Origin: a virus
DNA length: 64,000 bases
Reading direction: 5' to 3' (one strand)
Virus record (IMG/VR): IMGVR_UViG_3300012944_000001
Location: 1 to 64,000 of that record
Position numbers and translations under genes: made by a program. The notes under the pieces were generated by a model, which did not search any database, was not told where the DNA came from, and saw nothing but the letters and a program-made list of their open reading frames with translations. Shown here piece after piece: positions 50,129-63,114 of the stretch (positions within the stretch are counted from its first letter, which is position 1; each line of letters opens with the position of its first letter).

Positions 50129-50129
50129 C

Positions 50130-50206
50130 TGCACGGATAGAGAAACGATGTCTCACCAGCCTCATAAGCTGAAAAGTAGTGGGTTTGACTCCCGCCTGTG
50201 CCCCCA
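50130..50206 (+). tRNA. tRNA-Met(CAT), atypical, initiator-like 1:72 mismatch
   Basis: CCAGC-CT-CAT-AA-GCTGA; T-loop TTTGACT; encoded CCA. Confidence 0.65.
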
Positions 50207-50278
50207 CTTAACAATGTTAATTTTGACAATGCCCTATCTTGCGTGGTACTCTTCAGTCCTCAACGACTTGGAGGAATT

Positions 50279-50632
50279 ATGGGAGATAGGGCAAACGTTT
50301 ATATTCACGAAGGTGATTCGCCTGGTGTATATTTATATACTCACTGGGATGGTACAGAACTTCCACAGATTGTGCAAAGTTCTCTACTAACAGCTAGAGC
50401 AATATCTAGATCTACAGATATTGCCTATCTAACTAGAATTATCTTTGAAGATATGATAAAGGATGATTTAGGCGGAGAAACGGGATACGGTGTTTCTGCG
50501 GAAGTACAAGATGGGGATGATCGGATAGTAGATATTAATGTAGATTTCCGTAATGGAATCACAACTACTTTAATCGGTTATCCTTATACTTGGGCAGATA
50601 TTCCTGAAGATCCGTTTTCATTTGAAGATTAA
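50279..50632 (+). CDS. hypothetical protein
   Basis: GGAGG RBS; MGDRAN...YLYTHWDG motif. Confidence 0.7.
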   Translation: MGDRANVYIHEGDSPGVYLYTHWDGTELPQIVQSSLLTARAISRSTDIAYLTRIIFEDMIKDDLGGETGYGVSAEVQDGDDRIVDINVDFRNGITTTLIGYPYTWADIPEDPFSFED

Positions 50633-50711
50633 GTAAACTATTGACGGGCCTGGGTCCTACACTGTAGGATGGATGAGAGCCAGTGAGTTGAGGGTGGTAC
50701 CTCTTCCTAAT

Positions 50712-50784
50712 GCGATATTAGTGTTTAACGGCAGCACGACAGTCTTCCAAACTGTAAGAGGGAGTTCGAATCTCCTATATCGCT
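50712..50784 (+). tRNA. tRNA-Gly(TCC)
   Basis: Cloverleaf; ACAGT-CT-TCC-AA-ACTGT. Confidence 0.9.
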
Positions 50785-50842
50785 CGTAATGAGGTTCTGC
50801 GGTACGCCTCCTGGTGAAAAACCAGATAAACACCGCCTTTAT

Positions 50843-50913
50843 TCCCCGATGGTGTAACGGTAGCACTACTGCCTCTGGAGCAGTAAGACTTGGTTCGAAT
50901 CCAGGTTGGGGAG
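50843..50913 (+). tRNA. tRNA-Gln(CTG)
   Basis: Cloverleaf; ACTGC-CT-CTG-GA-GCAGT. Confidence 0.9.
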
Positions 50914-51161
50914 CGGGCGTAAGTAGGGCAAATAGTAAGCGCACGGATACTAGTCAAGTCGTGTGATAGGGTATGTCCGAAGATTCTAGAGCGTGTAAAT
51001 CGACTCAGAGCGCGCACACCACTTGGTATGTAAGAATGAGGAGCCCCCAGCAATGAATGGTCGATACTGGGAATAGGTGACGCTCATTGATAAACCTCCT
51101 GAAAAATAAAAGGGAGGCCAAAGTTCATATGTCCATTACCATATGACGCATATCAATACTT

Positions 51162-51232
51162 TCCCCCTTGGTGTAATGGCAGCACACGAGCCTTTGGATC
51201 TCGTAGTTTTGGTTCGATCCCAGACGGGGGAG
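51162..51232 (+). tRNA. tRNA-Gln(TTG)
   Basis: Cloverleaf; CT-TTG-GA loop. Confidence 0.85.
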
Positions 51233-51438
51233 CTTTAGTAAATACTAAAGGAGGTAAATATGTTTATGGATCCAAGCATTTATAAGGATATTGAAATACT
51301 TAAAGTTCAAGTTGAAGGTTTAAAACAAATTATAAATACTCTTGTAGGAGAAACTCCAGGTATTAATGATTTAGTTCATATTAACTATGATTTTACTCAA
51401 GAGTTAACTAAACTCAGAAAGCTGGGAGAGTTAATTTA

Positions 51439-51759
51439 ATGGGTTATTATTCTACATTTGAAGTACTAGAGACAGATATTATTGACGCTTATACAGTATT
51501 AAATGATTTGACTGAGTCAGACTGGGATAGTTCGCCCGGTTTTTCCTATTGGGATTCTAATAATAGTGTTCATTCATATGATTCAGCTAAGTGGTATGAC
51601 TGGTTGACAGATCTGGGACAGCTTGCTAGACTCTACCCAGACAGTTACTTAGTAATGGAACGTCGTGGAGAAGAATCCCCTGATATTTCCAGAGTCATAG
51701 TAAAGCACGGAAAAGCCGTAGAGATTGAGCCAGAGCTGGTGTGGCCTGAAGTTCTGTGA
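51439..51759 (+). CDS. hypothetical protein
   Basis: MGYY...KWY...GEE..D motif common in phages. Confidence 0.7.
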   Translation: MGYYSTFEVLETDIIDAYTVLNDLTESDWDSSPGFSYWDSNNSVHSYDSAKWYDWLTDLGQLARLYPDSYLVMERRGEESPDISRVIVKHGKAVEIEPELVWPEVL

Positions 51760-51813
51760 TACAGTAGAGCAACCGTACGCCATGCGACGGTATATAAATA
51801 GGGCATGGCGCCT

Positions 51814-51885
51814 GGACTCATAGCTCAATGGTAGAGCACCAGCTTGTCACGCTGAAGGTTGCCGGTTCGAATCCGGTTGGGTCCG
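51814..51885 (+). tRNA. tRNA-Asp(GTC)
   Basis: Cloverleaf; TT-GTC-AC. Confidence 0.9.
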
Positions 51886-52252
51886 CGTTAAGGAGAGATA
51901 ATGGCTAACCTAAGTGCTAAATATGCTGCAATGACTAATGAACAACTCAAAGCTGAAATAGTAAGACTTAAGCGCCTTAAGAAAGAGACGCTAGATATTA
52001 ATACAGTAAAGAGCTATAACGCAGAAATACTTCGTATAGTTAAGGTCTTAGAAGTAAGAGGTTTATAATCTTTAACGTGTGGAGCAAACATGAATTCAAG
52101 GTATGATTCTTGGAGCACTGATGATCTATTAGTAGAGATCATCAGATTAAAGCAGAGGATAAAAGAGTCTCTGACAGTATATGGCTCTACACTTGATAAA
52201 GATAAATTATTAGCAATTACTAAAGTATTAGAAAAAAGACGTAATAATTAAT

Positions 52253-52323
52253 GCCGCTATCGTATATAGGTAGTATGCAAGCTTCTCACGCTTGTGGACA
52301 GAGTTCGAATCTCTGTAGCGGTA
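52253..52323 (+). tRNA. tRNA-Glu(CTC)
   Basis: CAAGC-TT-CTC-AC-GCTTG. Confidence 0.88.
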
Positions 52324-52521
52324 CTAGCAACACACCTTACAGGTCTTCAGAGTGTCGTGCTTTCTGAGATAAAAGAAAAGCGGCTCGTTAGCCAAAATAG
52401 AGATAGGCTGCCTGTTTGATGCTAACAAACCGAGGAAGTATGTGTGGGACTAGACTCGGATACTACTGATATAGGTATGCTTAGTGTGTACACACTAATT
52501 GGCAAAGGTATCAGTAGGTAT

Positions 52522-52593
52522 GCCCCCATCGTATATTGGTTAGTATCTGAGGCTTTCAATCTCAAGGAGAGGGTTCAATTCCCTCTGGGGGTA
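52522..52593 (+). tRNA. tRNA-Glu(TTC)
   Basis: TGAGG-CT-TTC-AA-TCTCA. Confidence 0.88.
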
Positions 52594-52849
52594 CGTAGCA
52601 CGTAATGGGATACTCTTCGGAGTAGGAGTGCGTTCCGGGAGATCACCCATTCGATCCTCTGGGTAGCATAGGAGCGGCGCGAACAAGGGAAGGGCCGCCA
52701 GGTAGGAGATACTGCATTCTGTGGCAGGAATGTAAGCAGGCATAAGGGATGAGCCTACCAGCCACTTAAACTAAATAACCTTTCTGAGATACAATTAGAT
52801 TGCTATAGCGATTACTGTTAAAGTAATTCTTTCTAGAAAGGTTCAAATA

Positions 52850-53164
52850 ATGGCTTTTACGTATTCACTTGTTACAGTGAACAACCTTGCTGTTGGTGAC
52901 CAGGTACGTGCCGCTGTTGCTGCTGATGGACATGCTTATGTGTTCCCAGTTCCAACAACTGGTGGCGCTTCTTTCCCAACAACAGTTCGTGCTATTTACC
53001 CAGCAGCAGTACCTCCTGGAACTGATAGTGCGGGTAACCCAGTTACCAATACTTCTGTTCTTTGGACAATTCAGTTAAACAACAGCTCTGTGTTCAATCT
53101 ACCAACAGACTTCACTTTGAATGTTGGAACAGACTTTGTTGTCAAGGCTACTGGTACAGCGTAA
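52850..53164 (+). CDS. hypothetical beta-rich protein
   Basis: GAAAGG RBS; followed by a hairpin. Confidence 0.7.
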   Translation: MAFTYSLVTVNNLAVGDQVRAAVAADGHAYVFPVPTTGGASFPTTVRAIYPAAVPPGTDSAGNPVTNTSVLWTIQLNNSSVFNLPTDFTLNVGTDFVVKATGTA

Positions 53165-53217
53165 GCTTTACTCCTAGTGGGACGTATGGTATCCTCCTTG
53201 CTGTACGTCCCACCCAG

Positions 53218-53291
53218 GCCCCTATAGCTCATGTAGGCAGAGCAGCGCTCTTGTAAAGCGCAGGCGGAGGGTGCAAGTCCTTCTGGGGGCT
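53218..53291 (+). tRNA. tRNA-Thr(TGT)
   Basis: GCGCT-CT-TGT-AA-AGCGC; variant T-loop TGCAAGT. Confidence 0.82.
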
Positions 53292-53309
53292 CTTTAAAGA
53301 AAGGTTATT

Positions 53310-53507
53310 ATGAAAATCTCTGATCCTATAATTCAGGAAGCATTAAATTCTGGAGCAGCTATTGGTATGGATAATTATCCAGAACATTATGCGGTAGTCT
53401 TGACAAACGGAGACTACTACATGTATCCTGACTATCCTAGCAACGACGTACGACACTTACTTGAAACAAAAAGTGTTGAGTTAGTGGACTGCTGGAAAGT
53501 TTTGTAG
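53310..53507 (+). CDS. hypothetical protein
   Basis: GAAAGG RBS. Confidence 0.6.
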   Translation: MKISDPIIQEALNSGAAIGMDNYPEHYAVVLTNGDYYMYPDYPSNDVRHLLETKSVELVDCWKVL

Positions 53508-53521
53508 TATCTTAGCTTTAT

Positions 53522-53595
53522 GCTCCAGTATCCCAACGGTAGAGGACATAGTCTCAAAAACTATGATAGTGTCGGTTCAAATCCGACCTGGAGTA
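53522..53595 (+). tRNA. tRNA-Leu(CAA), short variable loop
   Basis: ATAGT-CT-CAA-AA-ACTAT. Confidence 0.88.
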
Positions 53596-53730
53596 CAGCG
53601 CGGGTTCTTTCCAATAGTACTGAGGAAACCTCGTTAGTTACTGTAGTTTAAGTAAGCCCAGGCTAATTAAAAAACACTCAACCTAGGATAAGAGAGATAT
53701 GACCTGCTTGGTGGTCATCAGTAACGTTAT

Positions 53731-53803
53731 GGTTCTATAGCCCAATGGCAGAGGCATTCGACTTAAAATCGAAACAGTGACGGTTCGAGTCCGTCTAGAA
53801 CTA
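53731..53803 (+). tRNA. tRNA-Leu(TAA), bldA-type decoder
   Basis: TTCGA-CT-TAA-AA-TCGAA. Confidence 0.9.
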
Positions 53804-53880
53804 CTTGACTAGAGACGTATGAGAAGGTAGACTCATAATCTATCAGAAGGCTACGACGAACTGTAGGCTCTCTAGTTTAT

Positions 53881-53956
53881 GCTCCTGTAGCCCAATTTTG
53901 GCAGAGGCGTCGGTTTTAGGTACCGAAGGTTGTCAGTTCGAGTCTGACCAGGAGTA
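53881..53956 (+). tRNA. tRNA-Leu(TAG)
   Basis: TCGGT-TT-TAG-GT-ACCGA. Confidence 0.88.
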
Positions 53957-53990
53957 CGTTTTACAAAATCCATAAAAGGAGGCAACTGAT

Positions 53991-54206
53991 ATGGGGTTTG
54001 ACGTTACTCAAATTCTAGGATTTTTGGGACCTATTGGTCTTATGGGAGCATTTCTACTCTTTATGATTATGCGTAAGGGATGGGGATGGGCTCAGTTTGT
54101 TACAGCTTTTGTTTTTACTCTGTTGGTAGCTTCTGCACTTCCTGCCTTGCCACAAGCAATGCACAATGGTATGGTAGGCGTTATCAATGCATTTCAAAGT
54201 AAGTGA
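53991..54206 (+). CDS. small membrane protein
   Basis: AGGAGG RBS; two TM segments. Confidence 0.7.
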   Translation: MGFDVTQILGFLGPIGLMGAFLLFMIMRKGWGWAQFVTAFVFTLLVASALPALPQAMHNGMVGVINAFQSK

Positions 54207-54227
54207 TTAATAGCCCTTCGGGGTTTT

Positions 54228-54298
54228 AGGAATATACGTCAATGGAAGACTAGCGGCCTCCAAATCCGCTGATGTGGGTTCGAATCCTACTATTCCTG
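54228..54298 (+). tRNA. tRNA-Trp(CCA)
   Basis: CT-CCA-AA loop; G73. Confidence 0.88.
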
Positions 54299-54299
54299 C

Positions 54300-54328
54300 T
54301 TGACAGAGACTAACAACTCTGTTAGTAT
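54300..54328 (+). promoter_or_regulatory. promoter for tRNA-Asn and the Y-RNA array
   Basis: TTGACA-N17-TAGTAT. Confidence 0.65.
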
Positions 54329-54364
54329 CAGTAAAATACCTTCCTCCTTGTAGGTAAGGTTTAT

Positions 54365-54436
54365 TCCTTGATAGCTCAATGGCAGAGCAGTCGACTGTTA
54401 ATCGACCGGTTGTTGGTTCGAATCCAGCTCAGGGAG
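54365..54436 (+). tRNA. tRNA-Asn(GTT)
   Basis: GTCGA-CT-GTT-AA-TCGAC. Confidence 0.92.
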
Positions 54437-54497
54437 CCTTAGCCCCTTTTCAAGCCTCTCGATGAAGCTCAAATGAGAAGGGCCAAAATTTAAATTT

Positions 54498-54619
54498 GTG
54501 ACGATGCGAAGAATAGAGTTACTTCGGTTAATTAGTGGTTCGATTCCATTCTCTGTAGTAAAACACAGATAGGCGAGTATAAAAACTCGTACATACTTTA
54601 TTCAAATTTTTCTAGTCAC
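54498..54619 (+). ncRNA. Y-RNA-like unit 1 (T-arm cargo)
   Basis: GTGAC/GTCAC terminal stem; GATGCG...TTACTTC...TTTCTA; AGTGG-TTCGATT-CCATT. Confidence 0.75.
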
Positions 54620-54625
54620 TTAAAC

Positions 54626-54718
54626 TTGATAGAAGGTTGGGGTAGCCTGCTAGCGGCTGTAATCGGGCGAAAACGTCCCTTGTAATACTGATACGAACGT
54701 TCACATCCCTTCTATCAA
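54626..54718 (+). ncRNA. unassigned structured RNA within the array
   Basis: 11-bp terminal stem TTGATAGAAGG/CCTTCTATCAA with internal hairpins. Confidence 0.5.
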
Positions 54719-54725
54719 CTAACTT

Positions 54726-54866
54726 GACAGCGATGCGCAGATAAGAGATACTTCACAGGGAACTCCGGGTCGTAGGTTCGAATCCTACTCTATCGACTCT
54801 TCGGTAGATAGCTCAGTGGTAGAGCAGGGGTATATAAAGAACTTTTATCGACTTTTTCTAGCTGTC
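54726..54866 (+). ncRNA. YrlA-type Y RNA, unit 2 (circularly permuted tRNA domain)
   Basis: GACAGC/GCTGTC stem; T arm GTAGG-TTCGAAT-CCTAC, closed acceptor hairpin, D arm TAGCTCAGTGGTAGAGC. Confidence 0.88.
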
Positions 54867-54874
54867 TTTATTTT

Positions 54875-54967
54875 TATGACCAATGCGTAGGCACGGGGTT
54901 ACTTCAAATTAATTGATAATTGACGGGCATAGCCCAGTAAACCTCAGCCGATTATTTCTAGGTCATA
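54875..54967 (+). ncRNA. Y-RNA-like unit 3
   Basis: TATGACC/GGTCATA stem; AATGCG...TTACTTC...TTTCTA. Confidence 0.75.
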
Positions 54968-54980
54968 TAACTTAATATTT

Positions 54981-55053
54981 CTACCCGATGCGACGCCGCC
55001 GGTTACTTCAACCCTTCGCAGAAAAAATCCGGCCGCACATTTTTCTAGGGTGG
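54981..55053 (+). ncRNA. Y-RNA-like unit 4 (minimal)
   Basis: CTACCC/GGGTGG stem; GATGCG...TTACTTC...TTTCTA. Confidence 0.75.
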
Positions 55054-55061
55054 ATCATTTT

Positions 55062-55169
55062 AGTTCCGATGCGTGGATTACTGGTTACTTCAATGCTAAT
55101 GAAAAGGTACGGTTCGAATCCGTTTAAGGCATGGCGCCCACACACCAGAAATCATTATTTCTAGGAACT
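55062..55169 (+). ncRNA. Y-RNA-like unit 5 (anticodon-like hairpin plus T arm)
   Basis: AGTTCC/GGAACT stem; GATGCG...TTACTTC...TTTCTA; ACGG-TTCGAAT-CCGT. Confidence 0.78.
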
Positions 55170-55179
55170 TATTAATCTT

Positions 55180-55220
55180 CCCCTTGGTTAGGCATAGCCT
55201 TACTTGAGGGGTTTATTTTT
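55180..55220 (+). terminator. terminator-like hairpin between the Y-RNA array and Ro60
   Basis: CCCCTTGGT...ACTTGAGGGG then TTTATTTTT. Confidence 0.6.
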
Positions 55221-55254
55221 ATCTACTTAACGTACCACAACATAGGAGGATACA

Positions 55255-56874
55255 ATGGGTAAGTTCAATAAGGTTAACAGCACAGGCGTTCAGTCACCTA
55301 TAAAGACTGTAGGAAAGATTATTAATCATGATGCTCGTGTAGCTTTTGCGCGGGATACCCAGTCTGAACTGTATTTGTTTGCAGTATCCAACTTTGTTGG
55401 TCAGGATACGTTCTATGAGAATGCTAAGGCCAGCGATGATCGCTTTGTTATCCTTTCTCAAAAGGCCGCTGTAGCAGATCGTGCCTGGTTTGGCTACTTC
55501 GTGAGCTGGCTTCGTAACGAGGCATTCATGCGTAGTGCTGCTGTTGTGGCGGCTGTTGAGGGTGCCAAGGCATTACACGCGGCTGAGTCGTTTGTAGGGG
55601 CTGAGAATGCCTCCTGGCCCCGTCATATAGTTAGTGCTGCTCAAGCACGAGCTGATGAGCCCGGTGAAGTATTAGGATACTATGAAGCTAAGTACGGTAA
55701 GAATTTCCCGGCTTGGTTAAAGAAGGGTGTTGCGGACGGCGCAAAGCGTCTCTATAATGAGTATTCTCTTCTTAAGTACGATACAGTTTCTCACGGTTAT
55801 CGTTTTTCTGATGTAATTCAGCTTACTCACCCTAAGCCTGATAATGAAATACAGGAACAACTATTTAAGTACGCGATGAATAGTCGATACAATAACACAG
55901 AGTTTGTTGGCCGAGAGAATCATCTGCCCATGATAGAGACTCGTAAGGCTATTATGGAAATGCCTGTTCGTAGTCGAAAGGCACTTATAGGTAAGGGCGG
56001 AACAGAGGTACAGAGCCTATTCAAGAATGCAGGAATGACGTGGGAAGCTCTGTCTGGCTGGCTTCAGGGTCCTATGGATGCTGCGGCTTGGGAAGCCGTT
56101 ATTCCTTCTATGGGATACATGGCGCTGCTTCGTAATCTTCGTAATTTCCAGAATGCTGGTATCCGTGCTAAGGTGCTGAAGGAAGTTCTTGGTAAGCTTG
56201 CTGATTTCGAGCAGGTTGCAAAGAGTAAGCAGTTCCCTTTCCGATTCCTTGCTGCTTACCAGGCAAATAAGGATAATCTACAGATCTCTGCCGCGCTAGA
56301 GAGTGCTTTGCAGGCTTCTTTGGCCAATGTCCCTTCCCTTAATGGGAATAGCTTGATTCTAGTTGATCGCTCTGGTAGCATGTTCCAGACTGGTGGAGGT
56401 GTCCAAGGACTCGATCGTGCAGACACGGCTGCTATTTTCGGTACCGCTCTGGCTATGCAAGCAGAAAAGGCTGATCTTGTGCAGTACGGTTCAGCATGGT
56501 ATGGTCAGGATAGTTCTTCCAAGGTAGTATCTTTCCGTAAGGGGAATTCTATTCTGCCGATGCTCAGTAAGTTTGAGAATCTTGGCGGAACAGACACCAC
56601 TGGAGCTATTAAGCGACACTTGACACCGAAGCATGACCGAGTTATTCTCATCACTGATGAGCAGTACAACGGCTATGGTGTCGATCCAGGAAGCATTGTT
56701 CCTGCTAAGATTCCGATGTACACTTGGAATCTTGGAGGATATCAAGCGGCTCACAGTGAGTCTGGTTCAAAGAAGCGTCACACCTTTGGCGGATTGACTG
56801 ATAAGGCATTTGTACAGATTCCTATGATTGAGGCTGGGCAGAATGCTGTATGGCCTTGGGAGGCTAAGAAGTGA
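55255..56874 (+). CDS. rsr: Ro60/Rsr TROVE-domain RNA-binding protein with vWA domain
   Basis: DTFYE, RADEPGE, KY, HPKP, TWE.L, MGYMALLRNLRN, FPFRF; MIDAS DRSGSM, GGT, ITDEQ. Confidence 0.93.
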   Translation: MGKFNKVNSTGVQSPIKTVGKIINHDARVAFARDTQSELYLFAVSNFVGQDTFYENAKASDDRFVILSQKAAVADRAWFGYFVSWLRNEAFMRSAAVVAAVEGAKALHAAESFVGAENASWPRHIVSAAQARADEPGEVLGYYEAKYGKNFPAWLKKGVADGAKRLYNEYSLLKYDTVSHGYRFSDVIQLTHPKPDNEIQEQLFKYAMNSRYNNTEFVGRENHLPMIETRKAIMEMPVRSRKALIGKGGTEVQSLFKNAGMTWEALSGWLQGPMDAAAWEAVIPSMGYMALLRNLRNFQNAGIRAKVLKEVLGKLADFEQVAKSKQFPFRFLAAYQANKDNLQISAALESALQASLANVPSLNGNSLILVDRSGSMFQTGGGVQGLDRADTAAIFGTALAMQAEKADLVQYGSAWYGQDSSSKVVSFRKGNSILPMLSKFENLGGTDTTGAIKRHLTPKHDRVILITDEQYNGYGVDPGSIVPAKIPMYTWNLGGYQAAHSESGSKKRHTFGGLTDKAFVQIPMIEAGQNAVWPWEAKK

Positions 56875-57036
56875 GTAGGTGGTTCTGTATTTTTTGTCGA
56901 GAATGGTGGAAGCCGAGAGAAGCAAAGTGTCCAACATGTAGCCGACCAAAACCGTTGTCTTGACTTTGACTCATACGATCTGATACAGTATTAAGAGCAG
57001 TTGGCGGACTGCCCTCTAGTAAAAAACCGCCACGAT

Positions 57037-57109
57037 GGGCCTATAGCATAATTGGGAATGCACCTCTTTTGCAAGGAGACGAGTGTCGGTTCGAATCCGA
57101 CTAGGTCCA
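57037..57109 (+). tRNA. tRNA-Ala(TGC)
   Basis: G3:U70 acceptor; TT-TGC-AA. Confidence 0.88.
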
Positions 57110-57236
57110 CGCGGAAGTCCGTATTAGCTACCTAAACCGGTTGGGTCGGACCCAGAACGCTAATAACATGGGATAACAGAATATTAAAGAAAGTTAATTC
57201 GGCCGAATTATACCTACTAGTATTTTGCCCATGCAT

Positions 57237-57309
57237 GCTCCGTTAGCTCAGTTGGTAGAGCATTCGCCTCTTAAGCGACAGGTCGTCCGTTCAAGTCGGA
57301 CACGGAGCA
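57237..57309 (+). tRNA. tRNA-Lys(CTT)
   Basis: CT-CTT-AA loop. Confidence 0.9.
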
Positions 57310-57351
57310 CTGAGTTTTAGTAGCGCGGTTTCTCTAAAAAACCGGGACAAT

Positions 57352-57424
57352 GATTCCTTAGCTCAGTTGGTAGAGCAGCGGACTTTTAATCCGAAGCGCG
57401 TCGGTTCGAGCCCGACAGGAATCA
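57352..57424 (+). tRNA. tRNA-Lys(TTT)
   Basis: CT-TTT-AA loop. Confidence 0.9.
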
Positions 57425-57577
57425 CATGAATATATTGAGAGATCTTTATACAGTTAAAGGTTTATGGTATTACGTGTGTCCACGTCCAAAATGTAAATTC
57501 ACTACTGTAAGTAACTTAACATCTAGAGCTGATGCTATCGGAGCAAGAGCTAATCATGAGAGGGAACACGATAATTA

Positions 57578-58144
57578 ATGATCACTCCTCAGCCTGGAGA
57601 CTTTGGATTAGTCGCCATTAAAGGCGGTGTAGGTAAACTGATCCGTATTGGTCAATGGTTGAATGGTGATGGTTTCAATGACTATGAACATGCTTTCATC
57701 TATATTGGTGAGGGTAAGATAGTAGAAGCTGAACCAGGCGGAGCACTTCTATCAGATATAAGTGGGTATGATGGTAGATTCATTCTATGGTCTACAGGTC
57801 TTATTCCTTTGACTGATATTCAAAGAAGTTCTATAATAGACATGGCTCTAAAACAAATTGGCACACCTTATAGTTTCTTAGATTATTTTGCTATAGCGCT
57901 TTATAGAGTTGGTATTCGTCATCCAAAAGTATCTGATAGAGTTATCAGTTCAAAACATTTGATATGCTCTCAGTTAGTTGCCCAAGACTATGCCGATTCG
58001 GGAGCACCCGTAACAAAGTATCCACCTTACCTGGTGACCCCTGGACGTTTGGCAGACTTTTTGGTAAGCTTCAGACACACAAAACGTCTAGGCAAGATGG
58101 TTCAAAAATCTGGATCAAATAGCATTAATATTCAAATAGCCTAG
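57578..58144 (+). CDS. permuted papain-like NlpC/P60 amidase (YiiX/YaeF-like)
   Basis: PGD, HAFIY, VEA, GTPYSF, ICSQLV (His before Cys). Confidence 0.8.
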   Translation: MITPQPGDFGLVAIKGGVGKLIRIGQWLNGDGFNDYEHAFIYIGEGKIVEAEPGGALLSDISGYDGRFILWSTGLIPLTDIQRSSIIDMALKQIGTPYSFLDYFAIALYRVGIRHPKVSDRVISSKHLICSQLVAQDYADSGAPVTKYPPYLVTPGRLADFLVSFRHTKRLGKMVQKSGSNSINIQIA

Positions 58145-58149
58145 ATTAT

Positions 58150-58222
58150 GCATCCATAGCTCAACGGATAGAGCACTTGATTACGGATCAAGAGGTTGGG
58201 GGTTCGAATCCCTCTGGATGCA
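58150..58222 (+). tRNA. tRNA-Arg(ACG)
   Basis: CTTGA-TT-ACG-GA-TCAAG. Confidence 0.92.
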
Positions 58223-58356
58223 CAGGGACATAGGGTTCATCTATGTGAGGGTTGTCCCTCGGAAAACACGGAGATCATAGAGTGCGTTCCTGCACGTCCA
58301 GACCAAGCAGGTCAGATTGACGGTACCTGAATATTACCGTTATTAAGCATTTAACT

Positions 58357-58845
58357 GTGGGAGGTACTTTGTCTCGTACATTAAAAGATCGTCCTTACTG
58401 GGTATTAAAGAATGATCCAAAAATGTCTCGTTACGCTACTCACGCGCATATTGTTATGCAGCGGGAGGAGATCGGTGAAGAAGAGTATGACAGATATCCT
58501 TGGCGACCTGACGTAGATCCAGTAACACATATAAGAAAACTTTACAGAAGATGGTACGAGAATATACCTTGTACTCTTGATATACCAGAACAGTCACGTC
58601 ATGCTAGACAGTATGCTCGTTGGCAAGGTAGACATACCAACGAAGAAATGCTTGAAGGCAAATATTGTGAATATTGGCTGAGATACTATCCTAATATGAA
58701 GAGCGATAAAGCTTTCAAGCAGTTGACAAACCAGGCGATACGATCTAGAATAAATCAACAGCTTCGGGCAGCGTGTCATGAAGATCCTGAAGACGTTGAC
58801 ATAAGCACCGACACGAAGTACAATAGTCGTGGCTGGTGGGACTGA
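58357..58845 (+). CDS. hypothetical protein (start probably TTG 58369)
   Basis: GGAGG RBS; SRT.KDRPYWV N-terminus. Confidence 0.65.
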   Translation: MGGTLSRTLKDRPYWVLKNDPKMSRYATHAHIVMQREEIGEEEYDRYPWRPDVDPVTHIRKLYRRWYENIPCTLDIPEQSRHARQYARWQGRHTNEEMLEGKYCEYWLRYYPNMKSDKAFKQLTNQAIRSRINQQLRAACHEDPEDVDISTDTKYNSRGWWD

Positions 58846-59057
58846 TAAACACAATAGGAGGATGCAATGGGCAAGCCTAAGGCAAATTCAAATGTTTCGA
58901 TCCCTAAGAATCGTACGGGAGTTGTAACTGAAGTCGGAGAGACTAGGTCACACGTTCTAATTGAAGATCCAGAGGACCCTAAGAAGAGTATTACAGTTAT
59001 CGTTCCTAATAATAAGATTAAGTAGTGGGATAGAACAAAGTGTGCTATACTTAGTGT

Positions 59058-59375
59058 ATGCCTTATAAAAATAGAGAAGATCAATACGCATCGCAAGCAG
59101 CACATCGGCAACGCAATTTTGAAGCTATGTGGTCGATTCTCCGCAACTCGTCATGTACGGATTGTGGAGAATATGATCCCATAGTGCTAGAGTTCGATCA
59201 CCTTCCAGGTTACGAAAAGCGATTTGAAATTGCTAGAGCTGTAGGAAGTTCTACTAGAAGTTGGAAGGCTATAAAAGCAGAAATAGACAAGTGTGAAATC
59301 GTATGTGCTAACTGTCATAGACGTAGAACAAATCAGCGAGGATTGCACAAGCGTCATCTTGCTCCCGTAGACTAA
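59058..59375 (+). CDS. HNH endonuclease
   Basis: CTDCG...LEFDH...EIDKCEIVCANCHR. Confidence 0.85.
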   Translation: MPYKNREDQYASQAAHRQRNFEAMWSILRNSSCTDCGEYDPIVLEFDHLPGYEKRFEIARAVGSSTRSWKAIKAEIDKCEIVCANCHRRRTNQRGLHKRHLAPVD

Positions 59376-59433
59376 TGGACAAGTCACCAGCCTTCTAAGC
59401 TGTTAAATGGGGGTTCGAATCCCTCCGGGAGTA
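59361..59433 (+). tRNA. tRNA-Arg(TCT)
   Basis: CT-TCT-AA loop; overlaps HNH stop. Confidence 0.88.
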
Positions 59434-59466
59434 CGTAAGTATAGTTAAACACAATGGGAGGCAATT

Positions 59467-59664
59467 GTGGGATATAAGTTTAGAAAAGGCCAAGAAGTAG
59501 ATACGGTCGATGGTAAGGACGGCAGAATTACTTCTCGATCGGATGATTTCGGTAGGCAACCACGATATGTAGTAAATGGCAAGCTATATTTTGAGGAAGA
59601 ACTTCAGGCACAAACTTCGGACGAAAAGCCAGCAAAGAAGAGTCGCTGGGGTAGAAATAAGTAA
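59467..59664 (+). CDS. small SH3/KOW-like protein
   Basis: GGAGG RBS; KFRKGQEV. Confidence 0.6.
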   Translation: MGYKFRKGQEVDTVDGKDGRITSRSDDFGRQPRYVVNGKLYFEEELQAQTSDEKPAKKSRWGRNK

Positions 59665-59686
59665 GTTAAAAGCCCTTAGGGGCCAT

Positions 59687-59757
59687 GCCCGCTTAGGTTA
59701 ATGGAAGACCAGTAGTTTTACACACTACATGCGGGGGTTCGATTCCCTCAGCGGGTA
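59687..59757 (+). tRNA. tRNA-Val(TAC)
   Basis: GTAGT-TT-TAC-AC-ACTAC. Confidence 0.9.
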
Positions 59758-59780
59758 CTCGTAACAAGCAGGAGGCAATT

Positions 59781-59984
59781 ATGGCAAAAGTAGGCGACAT
59801 CGTAAAGATGCAAAAAGGAACATACAAGGATCGTCTGGGAGTAGTTATTGCTATCCGTAATAATATTCTGTGTGATGTAAAGCTAGCTCGTCCAGGTGAG
59901 CGGCGTTCCAGAATTAGTCTGGATATGCCTGGAATAGTAGTTACCAATTGTCTTGAAATTGAAGATTTCATCATATCTAAATAG
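59781..59984 (+). CDS. KOW-motif protein
   Basis: KVGDIVKMQKGTYKDRLGVV. Confidence 0.65.
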   Translation: MAKVGDIVKMQKGTYKDRLGVVIAIRNNILCDVKLARPGERRSRISLDMPGIVVTNCLEIEDFIISK

Positions 59985-59990
59985 TTTTAT

Positions 59991-60069
59991 GGGTCTGTAA
60001 GGTTTCGTCTGAACTTAAAGCCGCACGTCGGAAACTTTCAGCACCCCGGTTCGATTCCGGGCAGATCCA
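59991..60069 (+). ncRNA. mini-tmRNA-like RNA (tRNA-like domain only)
   Basis: GGGTCTG/CAGATCC-A acceptor with G3:U70; stemless D-loop TAAGGTTTCG; T arm CCCGG-TTCGATT-CCGGG. Confidence 0.7.
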
Positions 60070-60073
60070 CTTT

Positions 60074-60150
60074 GCGCATTGATCTAATCCGCATGGTGTG
60101 GAGTTGGTCTGCAAAACCAATGATTTCCGGTTCGATTCCGGTAATGCGCT
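60074..60150 (+). tRNA. tRNA-Cys(GCA), atypical D arm
   Basis: TTGGT-CT-GCA-AA-ACCAA; U73. Confidence 0.8.
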
Positions 60151-60162
60151 CTTGGAGGATAG

Positions 60163-60316
60163 CATGAAACAAGGAACAATAACTAAGATATATGGAAAAT
60201 ACAAAGCGGAATATGTAAAACCTGATCGTAAGTATGGAAGACATTGGGTAACGATTTTAGAAGGCCCTGATATAGGAAGAACTATAACTGTTCCCGCAGA
60301 TCGTCTTGATAAGTAA
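60163..60316 (+). CDS. small hypothetical protein
   Basis: GGAGG RBS before MKQGT. Confidence 0.55.
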
Positions 60317-60320
60317 ATAT

Positions 60321-60406
60321 GGAGAAGTGGCTGAGTTGGTCTAAGGCATCTGATTGCTAATCAGAAGGGTGTAAAAGCTCCGCAGGTTCGAATCCTGTCT
60401 TCTCCG
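60321..60406 (+). tRNA. tRNA-Ser(GCT)
   Basis: TCTGA-TT-GCT-AA-TCAGA; long variable arm. Confidence 0.92.
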
Positions 60407-60535
60407 CTCTGGTATCAGTCCTATATCAGGAACCTGAAAGACGACGTGTAGTCCGGATTAGTAAGGTAGCTAAATATACATAAAAGAAGTGCTCGACTAC
60501 ACATACGCTTTTATGTATAATTTAGTATGGACATT

Positions 60536-60623
60536 GGAAGTTCCAACCGATAGATGGCGCCGGTCGCAGTCTTGAAAACTGTTGGGTGTAATAGCCGTAG
60601 GGGTTCGACCCCCCTAGCTTCCG
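60536..60623 (+). tRNA. tRNA-Ser(TGA), atypical D arm
   Basis: GCAGT-CT-TGA-AA-ACTGT; long variable arm; G73. Confidence 0.82.
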
Positions 60624-60675
60624 CTGGCTGATAGTATTGACTATTGAATCACTATGTTATAGTGTGGCCTAACTT

Positions 60676-60751
60676 GCTCCAGTGGCCAAGTCTGGTGAAG
60701 GCGCCCGTCTTATAAGCGGGAGATGCGTCGGTTCAAATCCGACCTGGAGTA
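60676..60751 (+). tRNA. tRNA-Ile(TAT)
   Basis: CCCGT-CT-TAT-AA-GCGGG. Confidence 0.85.
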
Positions 60752-60808
60752 CAAAGACTGCTATCCGTTAGATTCGGATATAATCCTAGTTGGACACTAG
60801 CAGTCCTT

Positions 60809-60882
60809 TCAGGTATAGTGAAATCTGGTCATCACAACACTCTGATAAAGTGTAATTCTGGGTTCAAATCCCGGTACCTGGA
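60809..60882 (+). tRNA. tRNA-Ile(GAT)
   Basis: ACACT-CT-GAT-AA-AGTGT. Confidence 0.88.
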
Positions 60883-60978
60883 CGTTAAGGAGATAACTAT
60901 GATTAAATGTTCAAGATGCAAAGCAAAGAATATAAAAGGTAGTCGTTGGTGTCATAGATGTGGCAAGGAGTTAAGTTA

Positions 60979-61293
60979 ATGTATTCGGTAACTGATGCTA
61001 CATTTCATGAAGTATTACACAACAATAAGTCTGTCATTGTAGATTTTTGGGCACCCTGGTGCGGTCCTTGTCGTCAAGTAGCACCTGTGCTAGACTCTTT
61101 ATCACAAGAGCATACAGATATTACTTTTGTCAAAATGGACATTGATACAAATCATATGACATCTAATAAGTATGAAATATTATCTGTTCCAACAATTGCA
61201 CTATTTATTAATGGTGATTTAGTAAAAACAGTAGTTGGAGCAAGACCGAAAGTAGCTCTTGAAAGAGAATTACTTTCTGCCCTATATCAATAG
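60979..61293 (+). CDS. trxA: thioredoxin
   Basis: VDFWAPWCGPC; AAGGAG RBS before ATG 60979. Confidence 0.95.
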   Translation: MYSVTDATFHEVLHNNKSVIVDFWAPWCGPCRQVAPVLDSLSQEHTDITFVKMDIDTNHMTSNKYEILSVPTIALFINGDLVKTVVGARPKVALERELLSALYQ

Positions 61294-61299
61294 GGTTAT

Positions 61300-61372
61300 G
61301 GTGTTTGAGGCCAAACGGATAGGCGCCTGGTTGTGGTCCAGGTTAAAGCGGGTTCGACTCCCGTCATTCACC
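61300..61372 (+). tRNA. tRNA-His(GTG)
   Basis: G-1:C73; CCTGG-TT-GTG-GT-CCAGG; two T-T mismatches in acceptor. Confidence 0.8.
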
Positions 61373-61478
61373 CTTAAGGTCCAGAGTAACCATAAAAATC
61401 CTCCTCTCTGGTATGCAATGGATGCCTCTCACACCTCTATATAACGAGGAAGGTGGAGGATAAGGCTCCTGCGCCAAT

Positions 61479-61559
61479 GGGTGAGTTGAGCAATTGGTTG
61501 GCTCAGCGGACTGTAAATCCGTCTCTTCGGACATGGGGGTTCGAATCCCTCCTTACCCA
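61479..61559 (+). tRNA. tRNA-Tyr(GTA)
   Basis: GCGGA-CT-GTA-AA-TCCGT; variable arm. Confidence 0.92.
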
Positions 61560-61801
61560 CCTTAAGGAAATAAATGGCTAGTATAGTTGATGAATTAATT
61601 AATGGTATTGCTCATTTTGAATGTTTGGGCTGTAAGACTACTGCTACTAAAAATGTAGGACAAAGTAGAACAGCTTATGATAAAGCCTATAATAAATTCT
61701 TAAGTAAGCATTTGTCTTGTAAGTAGTACCAAATCCTCTATGTGTCACATAGAGGATTTTTTATTGACGTAGATCGTACCACACACTGAGGAGGAAATAT
61801 C

Positions 61802-62038
61802 GTGCGTCCATGGACTAAAGATGAAAGAGAAGCATATAAAGATTCGACCATGCATTATCACAAGTACGATCTCTATGGATATGTAGATGATCTTATTGAG
61901 ACTTGGCACACTTCTATGGGCCTAAATGTTTCTCTTTATAGTTTCCTAGGACTTTACGAAGGAGAAGTGTCAGACTGGGCCGGTAAGAATATCATTCCGG
62001 ATCGTATTGTAGTTATGTGGGAGGAAGGAGAATACTAA
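61802..62038 (+). CDS. hypothetical protein
   Basis: GAGGAGG RBS. Confidence 0.6.
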   Translation: MRPWTKDEREAYKDSTMHYHKYDLYGYVDDLIETWHTSMGLNVSLYSFLGLYEGEVSDWAGKNIIPDRIVVMWEEGEY

Positions 62039-63114
62039 TGCTTATACATGATTTACTTAACATCCGGGATTTAGATACTATGCTTACGGAAGGTTATGTA
62101 AGATTTGGTATTCATCCCATTTTTCCAAATGTTCGTATATTTAACTACACTGAAAAGGCTCAATTCGCCAACGAGTGGAATGACATAACTCGACAATGCC
62201 GTGGTCTTATAGTTGATTGGGATACCAAAGAAGTACTTGCGCGCCCTTTTGACAAGTTCATGAATTATGGTCAAGATCAGGCAGACGTAATTCTTGCTGG
62301 CTATTCAGTTAAGGTATATGACAAGTTAGACGGATCTCTGGGAATTCTATTTCGTCGTCCTGATGGTTTTTGGGAAATAGCTACAAGAGGTTCCTTTCAA
62401 TCAGACCAGGCGTCGCATGCCACAATACTTCTTCGTCAAAAGTACAGTTCGTTTTTACTGGGATTAAATAGTGATCTTACATATATGTTTGAAATCATCT
62501 ATCCACAAAACCGTATCGTATTGGATTACGGAGACAAAGATTCCCTGGTATTACTTGGTGCCAGAAGTATTGACGAAGGCTCTACGTACGGGCCTGAGAG
62601 CCTCCCAGATTGGCACTGGGACCGAACTACTACCTTCCCTTACAAGACTCTCAGTGAGGCGCTGAAGGCCCCTCCTAGACCTAATGCAGAGGGTTACGTG
62701 GTCTACTTCCCGGAGTTGGACCACAGAGTCAAGATCAAGCAGGATGATTACATAGCGATGCACAAGATCGTTACGGGCTTGACAGAGCGTCGTATCTGGG
62801 AGAACATGAAGGAAGGTAAAACTCTAGAAGATCTTGTAAATATTATTCCAGACGAATGGCATGATTGGCTCCAAGAAACGTATACTAAGATCAAGAAAAA
62901 TTATTGGGCTGAATGGAGTACTATTCTTGAGGAGTTTAATACACATACCATGTGGTTGGACGTGGCTAATTATCAAAAATGGTCCCGAAAAGATTTTGCT
63001 TTGCGAGTTAAAGACTCAAGATATAAAGGCTTTATGTTTTTAATGTTGGATAATAACAACGTAACTGACAAGGTATGGCAATTGGTTCGACCACCCGCTG
63101 AGTCATTACTGTAA
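62038..63114 (+). CDS. T4 Rnl1-like RNA ligase
   Basis: CRGLI, RPFDKFMN, motif I KLDGSLG, ATRGSF, FEII, EGYV, VKIK. Confidence 0.92.
   Translation: MLIHDLLNIRDLDTMLTEGYVRFGIHPIFPNVRIFNYTEKAQFANEWNDITRQCRGLIVDWDTKEVLARPFDKFMNYGQDQADVILAGYSVKVYDKLDGSLGILFRRPDGFWEIATRGSFQSDQASHATILLRQKYSSFLLGLNSDLTYMFEIIYPQNRIVLDYGDKDSLVLLGARSIDEGSTYGPESLPDWHWDRTTTFPYKTLSEALKAPPRPNAEGYVVYFPELDHRVKIKQDDYIAMHKIVTGLTERRIWENMKEGKTLEDLVNIIPDEWHDWLQETYTKIKKNYWAEWSTILEEFNTHTMWLDVANYQKWSRKDFALRVKDSRYKGFMFLMLDNNNVTDKVWQLVRPPAESLL

What the first reader, a model, noticed from the sequence alone, without database searches (positions are those of the whole stretch)
59991..60069. 79-nt mini-tmRNA: an alanylatable tRNA-like domain with no tag reading frame
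Seen: acceptor GGGTCTG/CAGATCC plus discriminator A with a G3:U70 pair; a stemless D-loop TAAGGTTTCG; a CTGAA/TTCAG helix closing only about 23 nt; a 3-nt linker; and a canonical T arm. Established: G3:U70 and A73 specify AlaRS, and a stemless GGTTTCG D-loop with a short linker to the T arm marks the tmRNA tRNA-like domain bound by SmpB. Normal tmRNA inserts more than 250 nt (pseudoknots and tag ORF) in helix 2; tmRNAs without a tag ORF are known from jakobid and oomycete mitochondria. A separate normal tRNA-Ala exists at 57037. Inference: an SmpB decoy that blocks host trans-translation, or a ribosome-rescue RNA that adds no degradation tag. Less likely alternative: a degenerate tRNA with an insertion after CT-TAA-A.
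Basis: partly seen in the sequence, partly recalled or inferred. Interest (0 to 1): 0.8.

Follow-up and report, generated by a model that had tools for sequence, protein, structure and literature searches.

The report
Phage tag-less mini-tmRNA gene
This phage carries a real 79-base gene for just the alanine-accepting, tRNA-like end of the bacterial ribosome-rescue RNA (tmRNA). One such RNA was already described in mycobacteriophage DS6A; it is common and mostly unannotated in phages, and it probably interferes with the host's rescue-and-tag system.

Summary
Window 59991-60069 (+) has a 7-bp acceptor stem with G3:U70 and A73, a stemless tmRNA-type D-loop, a 5-bp helix 2 closing 23 nt, a 3-nt linker and a canonical T arm. 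It has no tag frame and no pseudoknots.

It is not a one-off. A covariance model built from 20 relatives finds the same RNA in Streptomyces phages BRock, GiJojo, LuckySocke, Alone3 and pSt2308, in well over 100 viral and metagenome contigs, and in mycobacteriophage DS6A (59.9 bits). The DS6A "TLD-only" tmRNA is already published.

Across 137 distinct sequences G3:U70 is invariant, while helix 2, the T stem and an apical 3-bp hairpin covary. Rfam's tmRNA model scores the window copy at 43.8 bits, just under its cut-off of 47; relatives score 56-65.

The phage encodes no second tmRNA piece and no SmpB, ArfB or Pth. It does have a separate tRNA-Ala(UGC) at 57037.

The most likely function is a host-charged competitor of tmRNA for SmpB, EF-Tu and stalled ribosomes. 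Tag-less rescue is the main rival. Function was not tested.

This is a new member of a known kind. This scan has already reported the same family on many other phage genomes.

The parts
59991..60069 (+). Whole mini-tmRNA (TLD-only tmRNA) gene, 79 nt. CCA is not encoded: the discriminator A is followed by CTTT.
   Evidence: R1 85 bits; RF00023 43.8 bits over model positions 1-374; sequence. All 28 tRNA genes of the array likewise lack an encoded CCA.
59991..59997 (+). Acceptor stem, 5' strand GGGTCTG (G1, G2, G3).
   Evidence: Pairs with 60062-60068. G1:C72, G2:C71 and G3:U70 are invariant, and pairs 4-7 covary.
59998..60008 (+). Stemless tmRNA-type D-loop TAAGGTTTCGT. It carries the GG and UCG of the family consensus GG..UCGAC; this copy reads GUC instead of GAC.
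   Evidence: G11 and G12 are invariant or nearly so, and T15, G17 and C19 are conserved at 90% or more in the 20-sequence alignment. The Rfam tmRNA consensus is GGaUUCGAC.
60009..60013 (+). Helix 2, 5' strand CTGAA.
   Evidence: Pairs with 60037-60041. All 6 modelled pairs of this helix change on both sides in the family.
60014..60036 (+). 23-nt apical cap: a purine-rich 5' side (TAAAG), the hairpin CCG-CACGT-CGG (60021-60031), and a 3' AAAC. A likely closing pair is T60016:A60034.
   Evidence: The core AAAGCCGCACG(N)CGGA is invariant in 64 sequences, though the search pattern selected for it. The hairpin covaries in a set chosen without reference to it: third pair GC 31, AU 7, UA 7, CG 5.
60037..60041 (+). 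Helix 2, 3' strand TTCAG.
   Evidence: See the 5' strand.
60042..60044 (+). 3-nt linker CAC. Most relatives and canonical tmRNA have GAC as the end of GGAC.
   Evidence: Alignments.
60045..60061 (+). T arm CCCGG / TTCGATT / CCGGG.
   Evidence: The T stem covaries and 97-100% of cells are paired.
60062..60069 (+). Acceptor stem 3' strand CAGATCC (U70 at 60066) plus discriminator A73 (60069).
   Evidence: G3:U70 in 137 of 137 and A73 in 135 of 137 distinct family members.

Best explanation
The element is a functional phage gene for a tag-less, TLD-only tmRNA of the type first seen in mycobacteriophage DS6A.

Inferred steps:
1. It is transcribed within the tRNA array.
2. It is processed like a tRNA (RNase P, 3' trimming, host CCA addition).
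3. Host AlaRS charges it with alanine through G3:U70 and A73.
4. Host SmpB binds its D-loop/T-loop elbow and helix 2a, and EF-Tu binds the charged form.

Because it has no mRNA-like domain, it cannot direct tagging. Its most likely effect is to compete with host tmRNA for SmpB, EF-Tu and stalled ribosomes, which would lower SsrA tagging and degradation during infection.

Shown here: the anatomy, the conservation and covariation, the homology to DS6A, the lack of any tag frame or second piece, and the lack of a phage SmpB.
Inferred: expression, charging, SmpB binding and the effect on trans-translation.
For:
- **Rfam tmRNA model:** it matches end to end with the interior missing. The window scores 43.8 bits, BRock 64.5 and 55.9, GiJojo 57.4, LuckySocke 57.1 and DS6A 43.2.
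- **Homology to DS6A:** model R1, built without DS6A, finds its published TLD-only tmRNA at JN698994 28479-28557 with 59.9 bits, E 4e-14.
- **Covariation:** strong in the acceptor stem, helix 2, the T stem and the apical hairpin.
- **Alanine identity:** G3:U70 in 137 of 137 and A73 in 135 of 137, while the neighbouring acceptor pairs vary. This implies selection for alanine charging.
- **SmpB-facing D-loop:** the motif GG..UCGAC is conserved at 90% or more.
- **Constrained size:** 125 of 137 members are 76-81 nt long.
- **Standalone module:** many carrier phages have no tRNA gene nearby.
- **Dependence on the host:** no SmpB, ArfB or Pth in this phage, BRock, GiJojo, LuckySocke or DS6A, so host factors must be used. 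The two bacterial genomes that carry a copy also have a full tmRNA.
- **Literature:** the DS6A sequence is 'little more than the TLD', and a similar molecule strongly inhibits tmRNA in E. coli, perhaps by titrating SmpB (PMC4131195; PMC11915505).
Against: - No expression, charging or binding data exist for this phage or its host.
- The cited E. coli experiment found inhibition whether or not the RNA was chargeable. Pure SmpB titration therefore does not explain why G3:U70 is invariant. Something that needs alanylation, and so acts on the ribosome, is under selection, and that also fits the rescue rival.
- The window copy departs from the canonical tandem G.A motif: GUC/GCA instead of GAC/GGA. 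It falls below Rfam's cut-off.
- The strongly conserved apical cap has no role in this model.
- The host is unknown. The nearest cultured relatives infect Streptomyces, but the window is only about 42% G+C.
Confidence: 0.5

Rival explanations
1. Tag-less ribosome rescue. The same molecule, charged with Ala and bound to SmpB and EF-Tu, enters stalled ribosomes and accepts the nascent chain. The peptidyl-RNA is then released or hydrolysed by host factors (Pth, ArfB or a second rescue round). This raises rescue capacity during infection without marking proteins for degradation, as is proposed for mitochondrial tmRNAs that lack a tag frame.
For: G3:U70 and A73 are invariant, which implies that charging matters. 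The length and the helix 2 arm are constrained. CDS-less tmRNAs persist together with SmpB in jakobid and oomycete mitochondria and in some plastids, and are thought still to help with incomplete mRNAs (PMC11915505). The phage carries a full tRNA set and sits in a translation and RNA-maintenance gene island (other readers' note e1-6017832, untested).
Against: The phage encodes no hydrolase that could release the peptidyl-RNA: no RF-1/ArfB and no Pth. The only experiment cited for such a molecule reports inhibition of tmRNA, not rescue. No mechanism is known for recycling a ribosome that holds a peptidyl-TLD and an empty A site.
Confidence: 0.3
2. The tRNA-like shape is used for something other than trans-translation. 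Possibilities are a decoy or sink for a host tRNA-targeting defence nuclease, a ligand for a phage RNA-binding protein through the conserved apical cap, an Ala donor for a non-ribosomal transferase, or an RNase P/Z processing signal in a polycistronic transcript.
For: The apical cap is the most conserved part and its hairpin covaries, yet it has no assigned role in SmpB binding. The element sits among tRNA genes and small ORFs in this phage. In other phages it sits between replication genes with no tRNAs.
Against: The features that are conserved are exactly the AlaRS and SmpB determinants of tmRNA. No protein gene co-occurs with it across 80 loci. A pure processing signal would not need G3:U70 or the tmRNA D-loop.
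Confidence: 0.13
3. A decaying remnant with no function: a degenerate tRNA with an insertion in the anticodon loop, or a deleted tmRNA pseudogene.
For: ARAGORN does not call it. The single-sequence fold is no more stable than shuffled sequence. RF00023 scores it below the cut-off.
Against: There are compensatory changes in four helices across more than 130 distinct sequences, with invariant identity elements. The element keeps the same syntenic slot, tRNA-Val then mini-tmRNA then tRNA-Cys then tRNA-Ser, in phages that share no megablast-detectable DNA beyond one tRNA-Ser match.
Confidence: 0.03
4. One half of a two-piece (permuted) tmRNA whose tag-coding piece lies elsewhere in the genome.
For: There is a weak sub-threshold hit to tmRNA_permuted RF04321: 18.6 bits against a cut-off of 47.
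Against: Both acceptor strands are contiguous and helix 2 is closed by a 23-nt cap, which is the opposite of the permuted gene order. Whole-genome searches with RF00023, R1 and ARAGORN find no other tmRNA-like piece in the 111.9-kb genome.
Confidence: 0.01

Closest known systems
TLD-only (CDS-less) tmRNA of mycobacteriophage DS6A (tmRNA Website tmID 11587 / Phage__Mycobacterium.9; Mao et al. 2009 RNA Biol 6:355 as cited in PMC4131195 and PMC11915505)
   Same: It is also 79 nt, with the same order of parts and the same core: DS6A GAAAACCGCACGCGGTA against the family's GAAAGCCGCACG(N)CGGA. It has G3:U70, A73, a tmRNA D-loop (GGTGGTCGAC) and a GCAC linker as in the window copy. My model built without it scores it at 59.9 bits. 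Both are phage-borne, and neither phage encodes SmpB (for the window phage).
   Different: The host genus and phage type differ: DS6A is a 60.6-kb mycobacteriophage in which the gene lies between protein genes and is not annotated. Here the gene lies in a 28-tRNA array of a 111.9-kb phage with direct terminal repeats. The window copy has GUC rather than GAC in the D-loop motif and a 5-nt rather than 4-nt hairpin loop.
Canonical one-piece bacterial tmRNA (Rfam RF00023), e.g. the 373-nt tmRNA of Actinomadura violacea fetched here
   Same: The tRNA-like domain matches: acceptor stem with G3:U70 and A73, D-loop GGxUUCGAC, the start of helix 2a, a GGAC-type linker and a T arm. The Rfam model aligns positions 1-29 and 334-374 (host-type example).
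   Different: About 300 nt are missing: pseudoknots PK1-PK4, the resume codon, the tag frame and its stop. The RNA therefore cannot act as a message.
Mitochondrial and plastid tmRNAs without a tag frame (jakobids, oomycetes, Mallomonadaceae plastids; Rfam mt-tmRNA RF02544)
   Same: They follow the same principle: a short alanine-type TLD kept without a coding part and working with an SmpB encoded elsewhere (PMC11915505).
   Different: There is no sequence-model match to RF02544. Those RNAs arose independently by reduction of the organelle's own tmRNA, whereas this one is an extra copy brought into a cell that has its own full tmRNA.
Full-length phage tmRNAs (mycobacteriophage Bxz1 group, Bacillus phage G, Streptomyces cluster BE phages)
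   Same: They are phage-borne tmRNA genes, often beside large tRNA sets (PMC4131195; PMC5764925).
   Different: Those encode a tag peptide and are found by ARAGORN. This one has no tag, and ARAGORN misses it.

Membership tests
tmRNA (canonical, Rfam RF00023) | Alanine-type acceptor stem: G1:C72, G2:C71, G3:U70 and discriminator A73 | tested here: met
   Sequence; invariant across the family.
tmRNA (canonical, Rfam RF00023) | Stemless D-loop with GG and UUCGAC, plus a canonical T arm | tested here: met
   The window reads GGTTTCGTC, one change from GGTTTCGAC, and its T loop is TTCGATT.
tmRNA (canonical, Rfam RF00023) | Helix 2a opening with the GAC/GGA motif (tandem G.A pairs) | tested here: inconclusive
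   The window has GUC/GCA, so G.A is possible and the next position is U.C. Most relatives have GAC/GGA. My tabulation of this position was not reliable.
tmRNA (canonical, Rfam RF00023) | mRNA-like domain: resume codon, tag reading frame and stop codon | tested here: not met
   Only 23 nt lie inside helix 2, and there is no stop triplet 3' of element nt 28. ARAGORN reports no tag peptide.
tmRNA (canonical, Rfam RF00023) | Pseudoknots PK1-PK4 | tested here: not met
   About 304 model positions are replaced by about 12 nt in the relatives' alignment.
tmRNA (canonical, Rfam RF00023) | Score at or above Rfam's gathering cut-off (47 bits) | tested here: not met
   The window scores 43.8 bits. The same element scores 55.9-64.5 in BRock and 57 in GiJojo and LuckySocke.
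TLD-only / CDS-less phage tmRNA (DS6A type) | Both TLD halves contiguous, with helix 2 closed by a short cap; total length about 65-90 nt | tested here: met
   79 nt. Family lengths are 76-81 nt in 125 of 137 members.
TLD-only / CDS-less phage tmRNA (DS6A type) | Homology to the DS6A element | tested here: met
   R1, built without DS6A, scores it at 59.9 bits, E 4e-14, and the core motif is shared.
TLD-only / CDS-less phage tmRNA (DS6A type) | Alanylation, SmpB binding and inhibition of host tmRNA | not testable with these tools
   Only the literature statement for a similar molecule in E. coli is available (PMC4131195).
Mitochondrial tmRNA (Rfam RF02544) | Match to the family model | tested here: not met
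   No match at E <= 0.001 among 37 scored candidates. Caveat: the model also rang in none of the control genomes.
Two-piece (permuted) tmRNA (Rfam RF04321) | Permuted gene order (3' acceptor piece first) and a separate coding piece; score of 47 bits or more | tested here: not met
   18.6 bits, in an alignment that spans two adjacent genes. No second piece exists in the genome.
Canonical tRNA (Rfam RF00005 / ARAGORN) | Cloverleaf with a D stem and an anticodon arm | tested here: not met
   ARAGORN does not call it and RF00005 does not reach its gathering score. There is no D stem and no 7-nt anticodon loop.

The most novel reading that the evidence does not exclude
Because G3:U70 and A73 are invariant while the rest of the acceptor stem drifts, the RNA must be charged to do its job. 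It would then act on the ribosome as an alanine donor rather than as a passive SmpB sponge. The phage would reprogram ribosome rescue to tag-less release, or to repeated Ala addition, so that its own stalled products escape SsrA-directed proteolysis. The conserved, covarying apical cap (NAAAR-CCN-loop-NGG-A) would be a specific docking site for a ribosomal or other factor that has not yet been identified.
Probability: 0.3. Interest if true: 0.7.

Novelty: new member of a known kind. Interest (0 to 1): 0.4.

Why it matters
Trans-translation is the main bacterial ribosome-rescue pathway and a drug target. A widespread phage RNA that plugs into it would be a natural, compact tool for blocking or redirecting it.

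There is also an annotation gap. ARAGORN misses these genes. The window copy falls just under Rfam's cut-off. The five GenBank relatives leave the locus blank, or cover it with a protein CDS in GiJojo.

The published record that I could search names only DS6A as a phage example.

For this particular window the result is ordinary within that family, and the same scan has already reported the family on many other phage genomes.

Tried and rejected
- **Close relatives.** Megablast of the 4-kb neighbourhood found only a tRNA-Ser match to phage Faust. Relatives came from the more sensitive blastn mode ('distant') and from pattern scans.
- **Single-sequence folding** is not informative (z = -1.2).
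- **Substitute for a missing tRNA-Ala.** Rejected: 57037-57110 is tRNA-Ala(UGC).
- **Partner proteins encoded by the phage.** No SmpB, RF-1/ArfB, Pth or CCA-adding enzyme was found.
- **A protein gene that travels with the RNA.** Clustering ORFs within 2.5 kb in 80 loci gave only lineage-specific neighbours.
- **Pfam on flanking ORFs.**
  - The small ORFs next to the window copy gave nothing above cut-off.
  - In another lineage the neighbours include a recombination endonuclease VII and a weak, sub-threshold DnaB-like helicase match.
- **Promoter and terminator scan.** Nothing beyond chance near the gene.
- **mt-tmRNA and permuted-tmRNA models.** No hit and a sub-threshold hit respectively.
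- **A.G to U.C covariation in the helix 2a motif.** I could not tabulate it reliably and do not claim it.
- **Origin of the cap.** Comparison by eye with an actinobacterial tmRNA was suggestive only and is not claimed.
- **Literature.**
  - Mao et al. 2009 is not held, so it is cited only through the two papers that quote it.
  - The held supplements of the 2025 tmRNA database paper list no Streptomyces phage entry.
  - No paper in the library uses terms such as mini-tmRNA or TLD-only for phages.

Full report
**1. What is there**

The window is the first 64 kb of a complete 111.9-kb virus genome with direct terminal repeats. It holds an array of 28 tRNA genes between 49.7 and 61.6 kb, and no tmRNA is called.

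At 59991-60069 (+) the sequence reads, in order:
- acceptor strand GGGTCTG
- an 11-nt stemless D-loop, TAAGGTTTCGT
- helix strand CTGAA
- a 23-nt cap
- helix strand TTCAG
- linker CAC
- T arm CCCGG/TTCGATT/CCGGG
- acceptor strand CAGATCC
- discriminator A

Stop triplets occur only at element positions 8, 20 and 26, so no frame that starts in the cap can terminate. CCA is not encoded; the same is true of every tRNA gene in the array.

**2. Is it more than chance?**

On its own the sequence folds no better than shuffles (z = -1.2), and neither ARAGORN nor Rfam's tRNA model calls it. Comparative evidence settles the question.

The more sensitive blastn mode ('distant') found the element in the same syntenic slot in Streptomyces phages BRock, GiJojo, LuckySocke, Alone3 and pSt2308. 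The slot is tRNA-Val(tac), element, odd tRNA-Cys, tRNA-Ser(gct). These phages share no megablast-detectable DNA with the window beyond one tRNA-Ser match.

A pattern taken from the conserved core and the T loop hit:
- 25 IMG/VR contigs
- 78 metagenome contigs
- 6 contigs from bacterial genomes, of which two are true members: Actinomadura violacea, within a tRNA array, and a Sideroxyarcus MAG

A covariance model (R1) built from 20 distinct sequences separates members from ordinary tRNAs: 53-98 bits for members, below 30 bits for tRNAs.

Pair counts:

| Set | Cells forming a standard pair | Covariation score (shuffled mean) | Shuffles reaching it |
|---|---|---|---|
| 21 distinct sequences | 96.8% | 0.565 (0.125) | 0 of 500 |
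| 64 distinct sequences | 95.7% | 0.584 (0.126) | 0 of 500 |

In both sets, sliding the 3' partners by one to three columns drops the paired fraction to 31-54%.

Those sets were selected for the core motif. I therefore ran a second scan anchored only on the D-loop and T loop (GGTTTCGAC N25-55 GGTTCGATTCC). Of the 88 distinct sequences, 75 have a perfect 7-bp acceptor stem, G3:U70 and A73. In this set the apical hairpin also covaries (third pair GC 31, AU 7, UA 7, CG 5), and 97.6% of its cells are paired.

Over 137 distinct sequences, G3:U70 is present in 137 and A73 in 135, and 125 are 76-81 nt long.

**3. What it is**

Rfam's tmRNA model matches the element end to end with the interior missing. 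For BRock, model positions 1-29 and 334-374 align, and 304 positions are replaced by about 12 nt.

| Element | RF00023 score (cut-off 47 bits) |
|---|---|
| Window | 43.8 |
| BRock | 64.5 and 55.9 |
| GiJojo | 57.4 |
| LuckySocke | 57.1 |
| DS6A | 43.2 |

The window copy scores lower probably because it reads GUC/GCA where the consensus has GAC/GGA at the start of helix 2a. Metagenomic members L015 and L034 share this variant.

The mitochondrial tmRNA model does not match. The permuted model gives only a spurious sub-threshold alignment across two genes. No other tmRNA-like piece exists in the genome.

The element is therefore a tmRNA tRNA-like domain with no mRNA-like domain and no partner piece.

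**4. Precedent**

The literature already names one phage example. Hudson, Lau and Williams list 'Mycobacterium phage DS6A (TLD only)'. They note that a similar molecule, chargeable or not, strongly inhibits tmRNA, perhaps by titrating SmpB, and they cite Mao et al. 2009 (PMC4131195). The 2025 tmRNA database paper repeats this and sets it beside the CDS-less organelle tmRNAs (PMC11915505).

I located the DS6A element at JN698994 28479-28557, between gp33 and a DNA polymerase III gene, where it is unannotated. It is 79 nt long and has the same architecture and nearly the same core. It scores 59.9 bits with my model, which was built without it. The window element is thus a homologue of a published RNA.

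In the paper library I found no description of the wider phage family. Mao et al. 2009 itself is not held.

Notes from this scan show that other agents have already reached the same conclusion on many other phage genomes: 173 notes in at least 158 genomes. I reached the DS6A link independently.

**5. Context and what it is not**

- **Not a stand-in for a missing tRNA-Ala.** 57037-57110 has G3:U70 and A73. It aligns without gaps to the relatives' tRNA-Ala(tgc) with TGC at positions 34-36 and a compensatory 30:40 change. It precedes the same two tRNA-Lys genes. ARAGORN's Cys(gca) call is a one-base register slip. With that correction the array covers all 20 amino acids.
- **Not tied to tRNA arrays.** In DS6A and many metagenomic phages no tRNA gene lies nearby. 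No protein family accompanies it across 80 loci. In one lineage it sits beside a recombination endonuclease VII gene and a weak, sub-threshold DnaB-like helicase match.
- **Dependent on host factors.** This phage, three relatives and DS6A encode no SmpB, ArfB-type release factor or Pth, and this phage encodes no CCA-adding enzyme. Both bacterial genomes that carry a copy also have a normal tmRNA.

**6. How it most likely works**

*Shown:* the determinants that AlaRS reads (G3:U70, A73, G1:C72, G2:C71) are kept under strong constraint. So is the surface that SmpB reads in tmRNA (the GG..UCGAC D-loop, the T loop and the start of helix 2a).

*Inferred:* the RNA is cut out of the array transcript like a tRNA, receives CCA from the host enzyme, is charged with alanine, and binds host SmpB and EF-Tu. 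Lacking a message, it cannot tag.

- **Favoured reading (0.5):** it competes with host tmRNA and lowers SsrA tagging during infection. The only experiment reported for such a molecule found inhibition.
- **Main rival (0.3):** tag-less rescue, as proposed for organelle forms.

The invariance of G3:U70 argues that charging matters. Simple SmpB titration does not require charging. I therefore think the RNA acts at the ribosome under either reading.

The conserved cap has no assigned role. It consists of a closing pair, a purine-rich 5' side, a 3-bp hairpin with a CACG-type loop, and a 3' A. It is the main unexplained feature.

A non-translational role (0.13), a decaying remnant (0.03) and a two-piece tmRNA (0.01) are much less likely, for the reasons given under the rival explanations.

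**7. Verdict**

- This is a new member of a known, little-described kind.
- Function remains inferred.
- Interest is moderate (0.4). The class is biologically attractive and badly annotated. However, this instance adds little beyond the DS6A precedent and the many earlier hits in this scan.

Noticed in passing
window 57037-57110 (+): ARAGORN types this gene tRNA-Cys(gca). By G3:U70, A73, a gapless alignment to the relatives' tRNA-Ala(tgc), and its position before tRNA-Lys(ctt) and tRNA-Lys(ttt), it is tRNA-Ala(UGC) with a 27:43 mismatch. With this correction the 28 tRNAs cover all 20 amino acids.
   Followed up: yes
window 60074-60151 (+); also L006:1684-1764, L007:1745-1823, L008:1641-1719: An atypical tRNA-Cys(GCA) with U73 lies 4 nt after the mini-tmRNA. 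The consensus fold gives an 8-bp acceptor stem, a 4-bp T stem, and 6-8 unpaired nt between the acceptor and a 3-4-bp D stem; 9 pairs show compensatory changes. It is unannotated in GiJojo, LuckySocke, Alone3 and pSt2308, is annotated on the wrong strand in BRock, and ARAGORN calls it tRNA-Arg(tcg) there. The 8/4 geometry recalls Sec-like 'allo-tRNA' folds; that comparison is from memory and was not tested.
   Followed up: partly
L007:1501-1743 (GiJojo gene 44, PP725410 17023-17265): The annotated 'hypothetical protein' CDS starts at an ATG two bases before the mini-tmRNA and runs through it. The real small ORF probably starts after the RNA gene, at about L007:1582. So the RNA gene is hidden under a protein annotation.
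   Followed up: partly
L031:12100-12166 and L023:468-538: In one phage lineage a GC-rich element of about 70 nt lies directly upstream of the mini-tmRNA. Its 3' strand (CCGCCAGGTCCAC) can pair either with the 5' end (GTGGACCTGGC) or with an internal CTGGCGG, and an inner hairpin covaries between the two contigs. It could be a leader, a processing element or an attenuator. ARAGORN does not recognise it.
   Followed up: no
L201:13717-13985 (three tandem 90-nt units); also L170:56-143 and L202: These tandem units contain GGTTTCGAC and GGTTCGATTCC but have no alanine acceptor stem. This is a different repeated tRNA-like element that the D-loop/T-loop pattern picked up.
   Followed up: no
L167:4177-4264, L177:4731-4821, L258, L263:13748-13836, L219, L229, L189: These are longer mini-tmRNA variants (86-92 nt). 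A larger hairpin replaces the short apical cap, and GTAC replaces the GGAC linker. L168 carries a second, weaker copy (5-81, 39.8 bits) with an aberrant T loop.
   Followed up: no
L055:5800-5880 (Sideroxyarcus sp. MAG) and L060:3042-3119 (Actinomadura violacea): These are the only two true members found in 185,579 species-representative bacterial genomes with the core pattern. One is in a betaproteobacterial MAG contig, which may be a mis-binned phage. The other is in an 8-tRNA array on a 253-kb Actinomadura contig. Both genomes also have a normal tmRNA.
   Followed up: partly
window 49718-61561: None of the 28 tRNA genes, nor the mini-tmRNA, encodes CCA. Each has a C after the discriminator followed by unrelated bases. 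The phage has no PolyA_pol-family CCA-adding enzyme, so 3' maturation depends on the host.
   Followed up: yes
window 54498-56874 and 62017-63114: Other first-stage notes on this genome report a Ro60/TROVE gene with Y-RNA-like repeats, and an RNA ligase, close to the array. I saw the 539-aa ORF (55255-56874) and the 365-aa ORF (62017-63114) in the ORF list. Relatives annotate an RNA ligase at the syntenic place. I did not test these.
   Followed up: no
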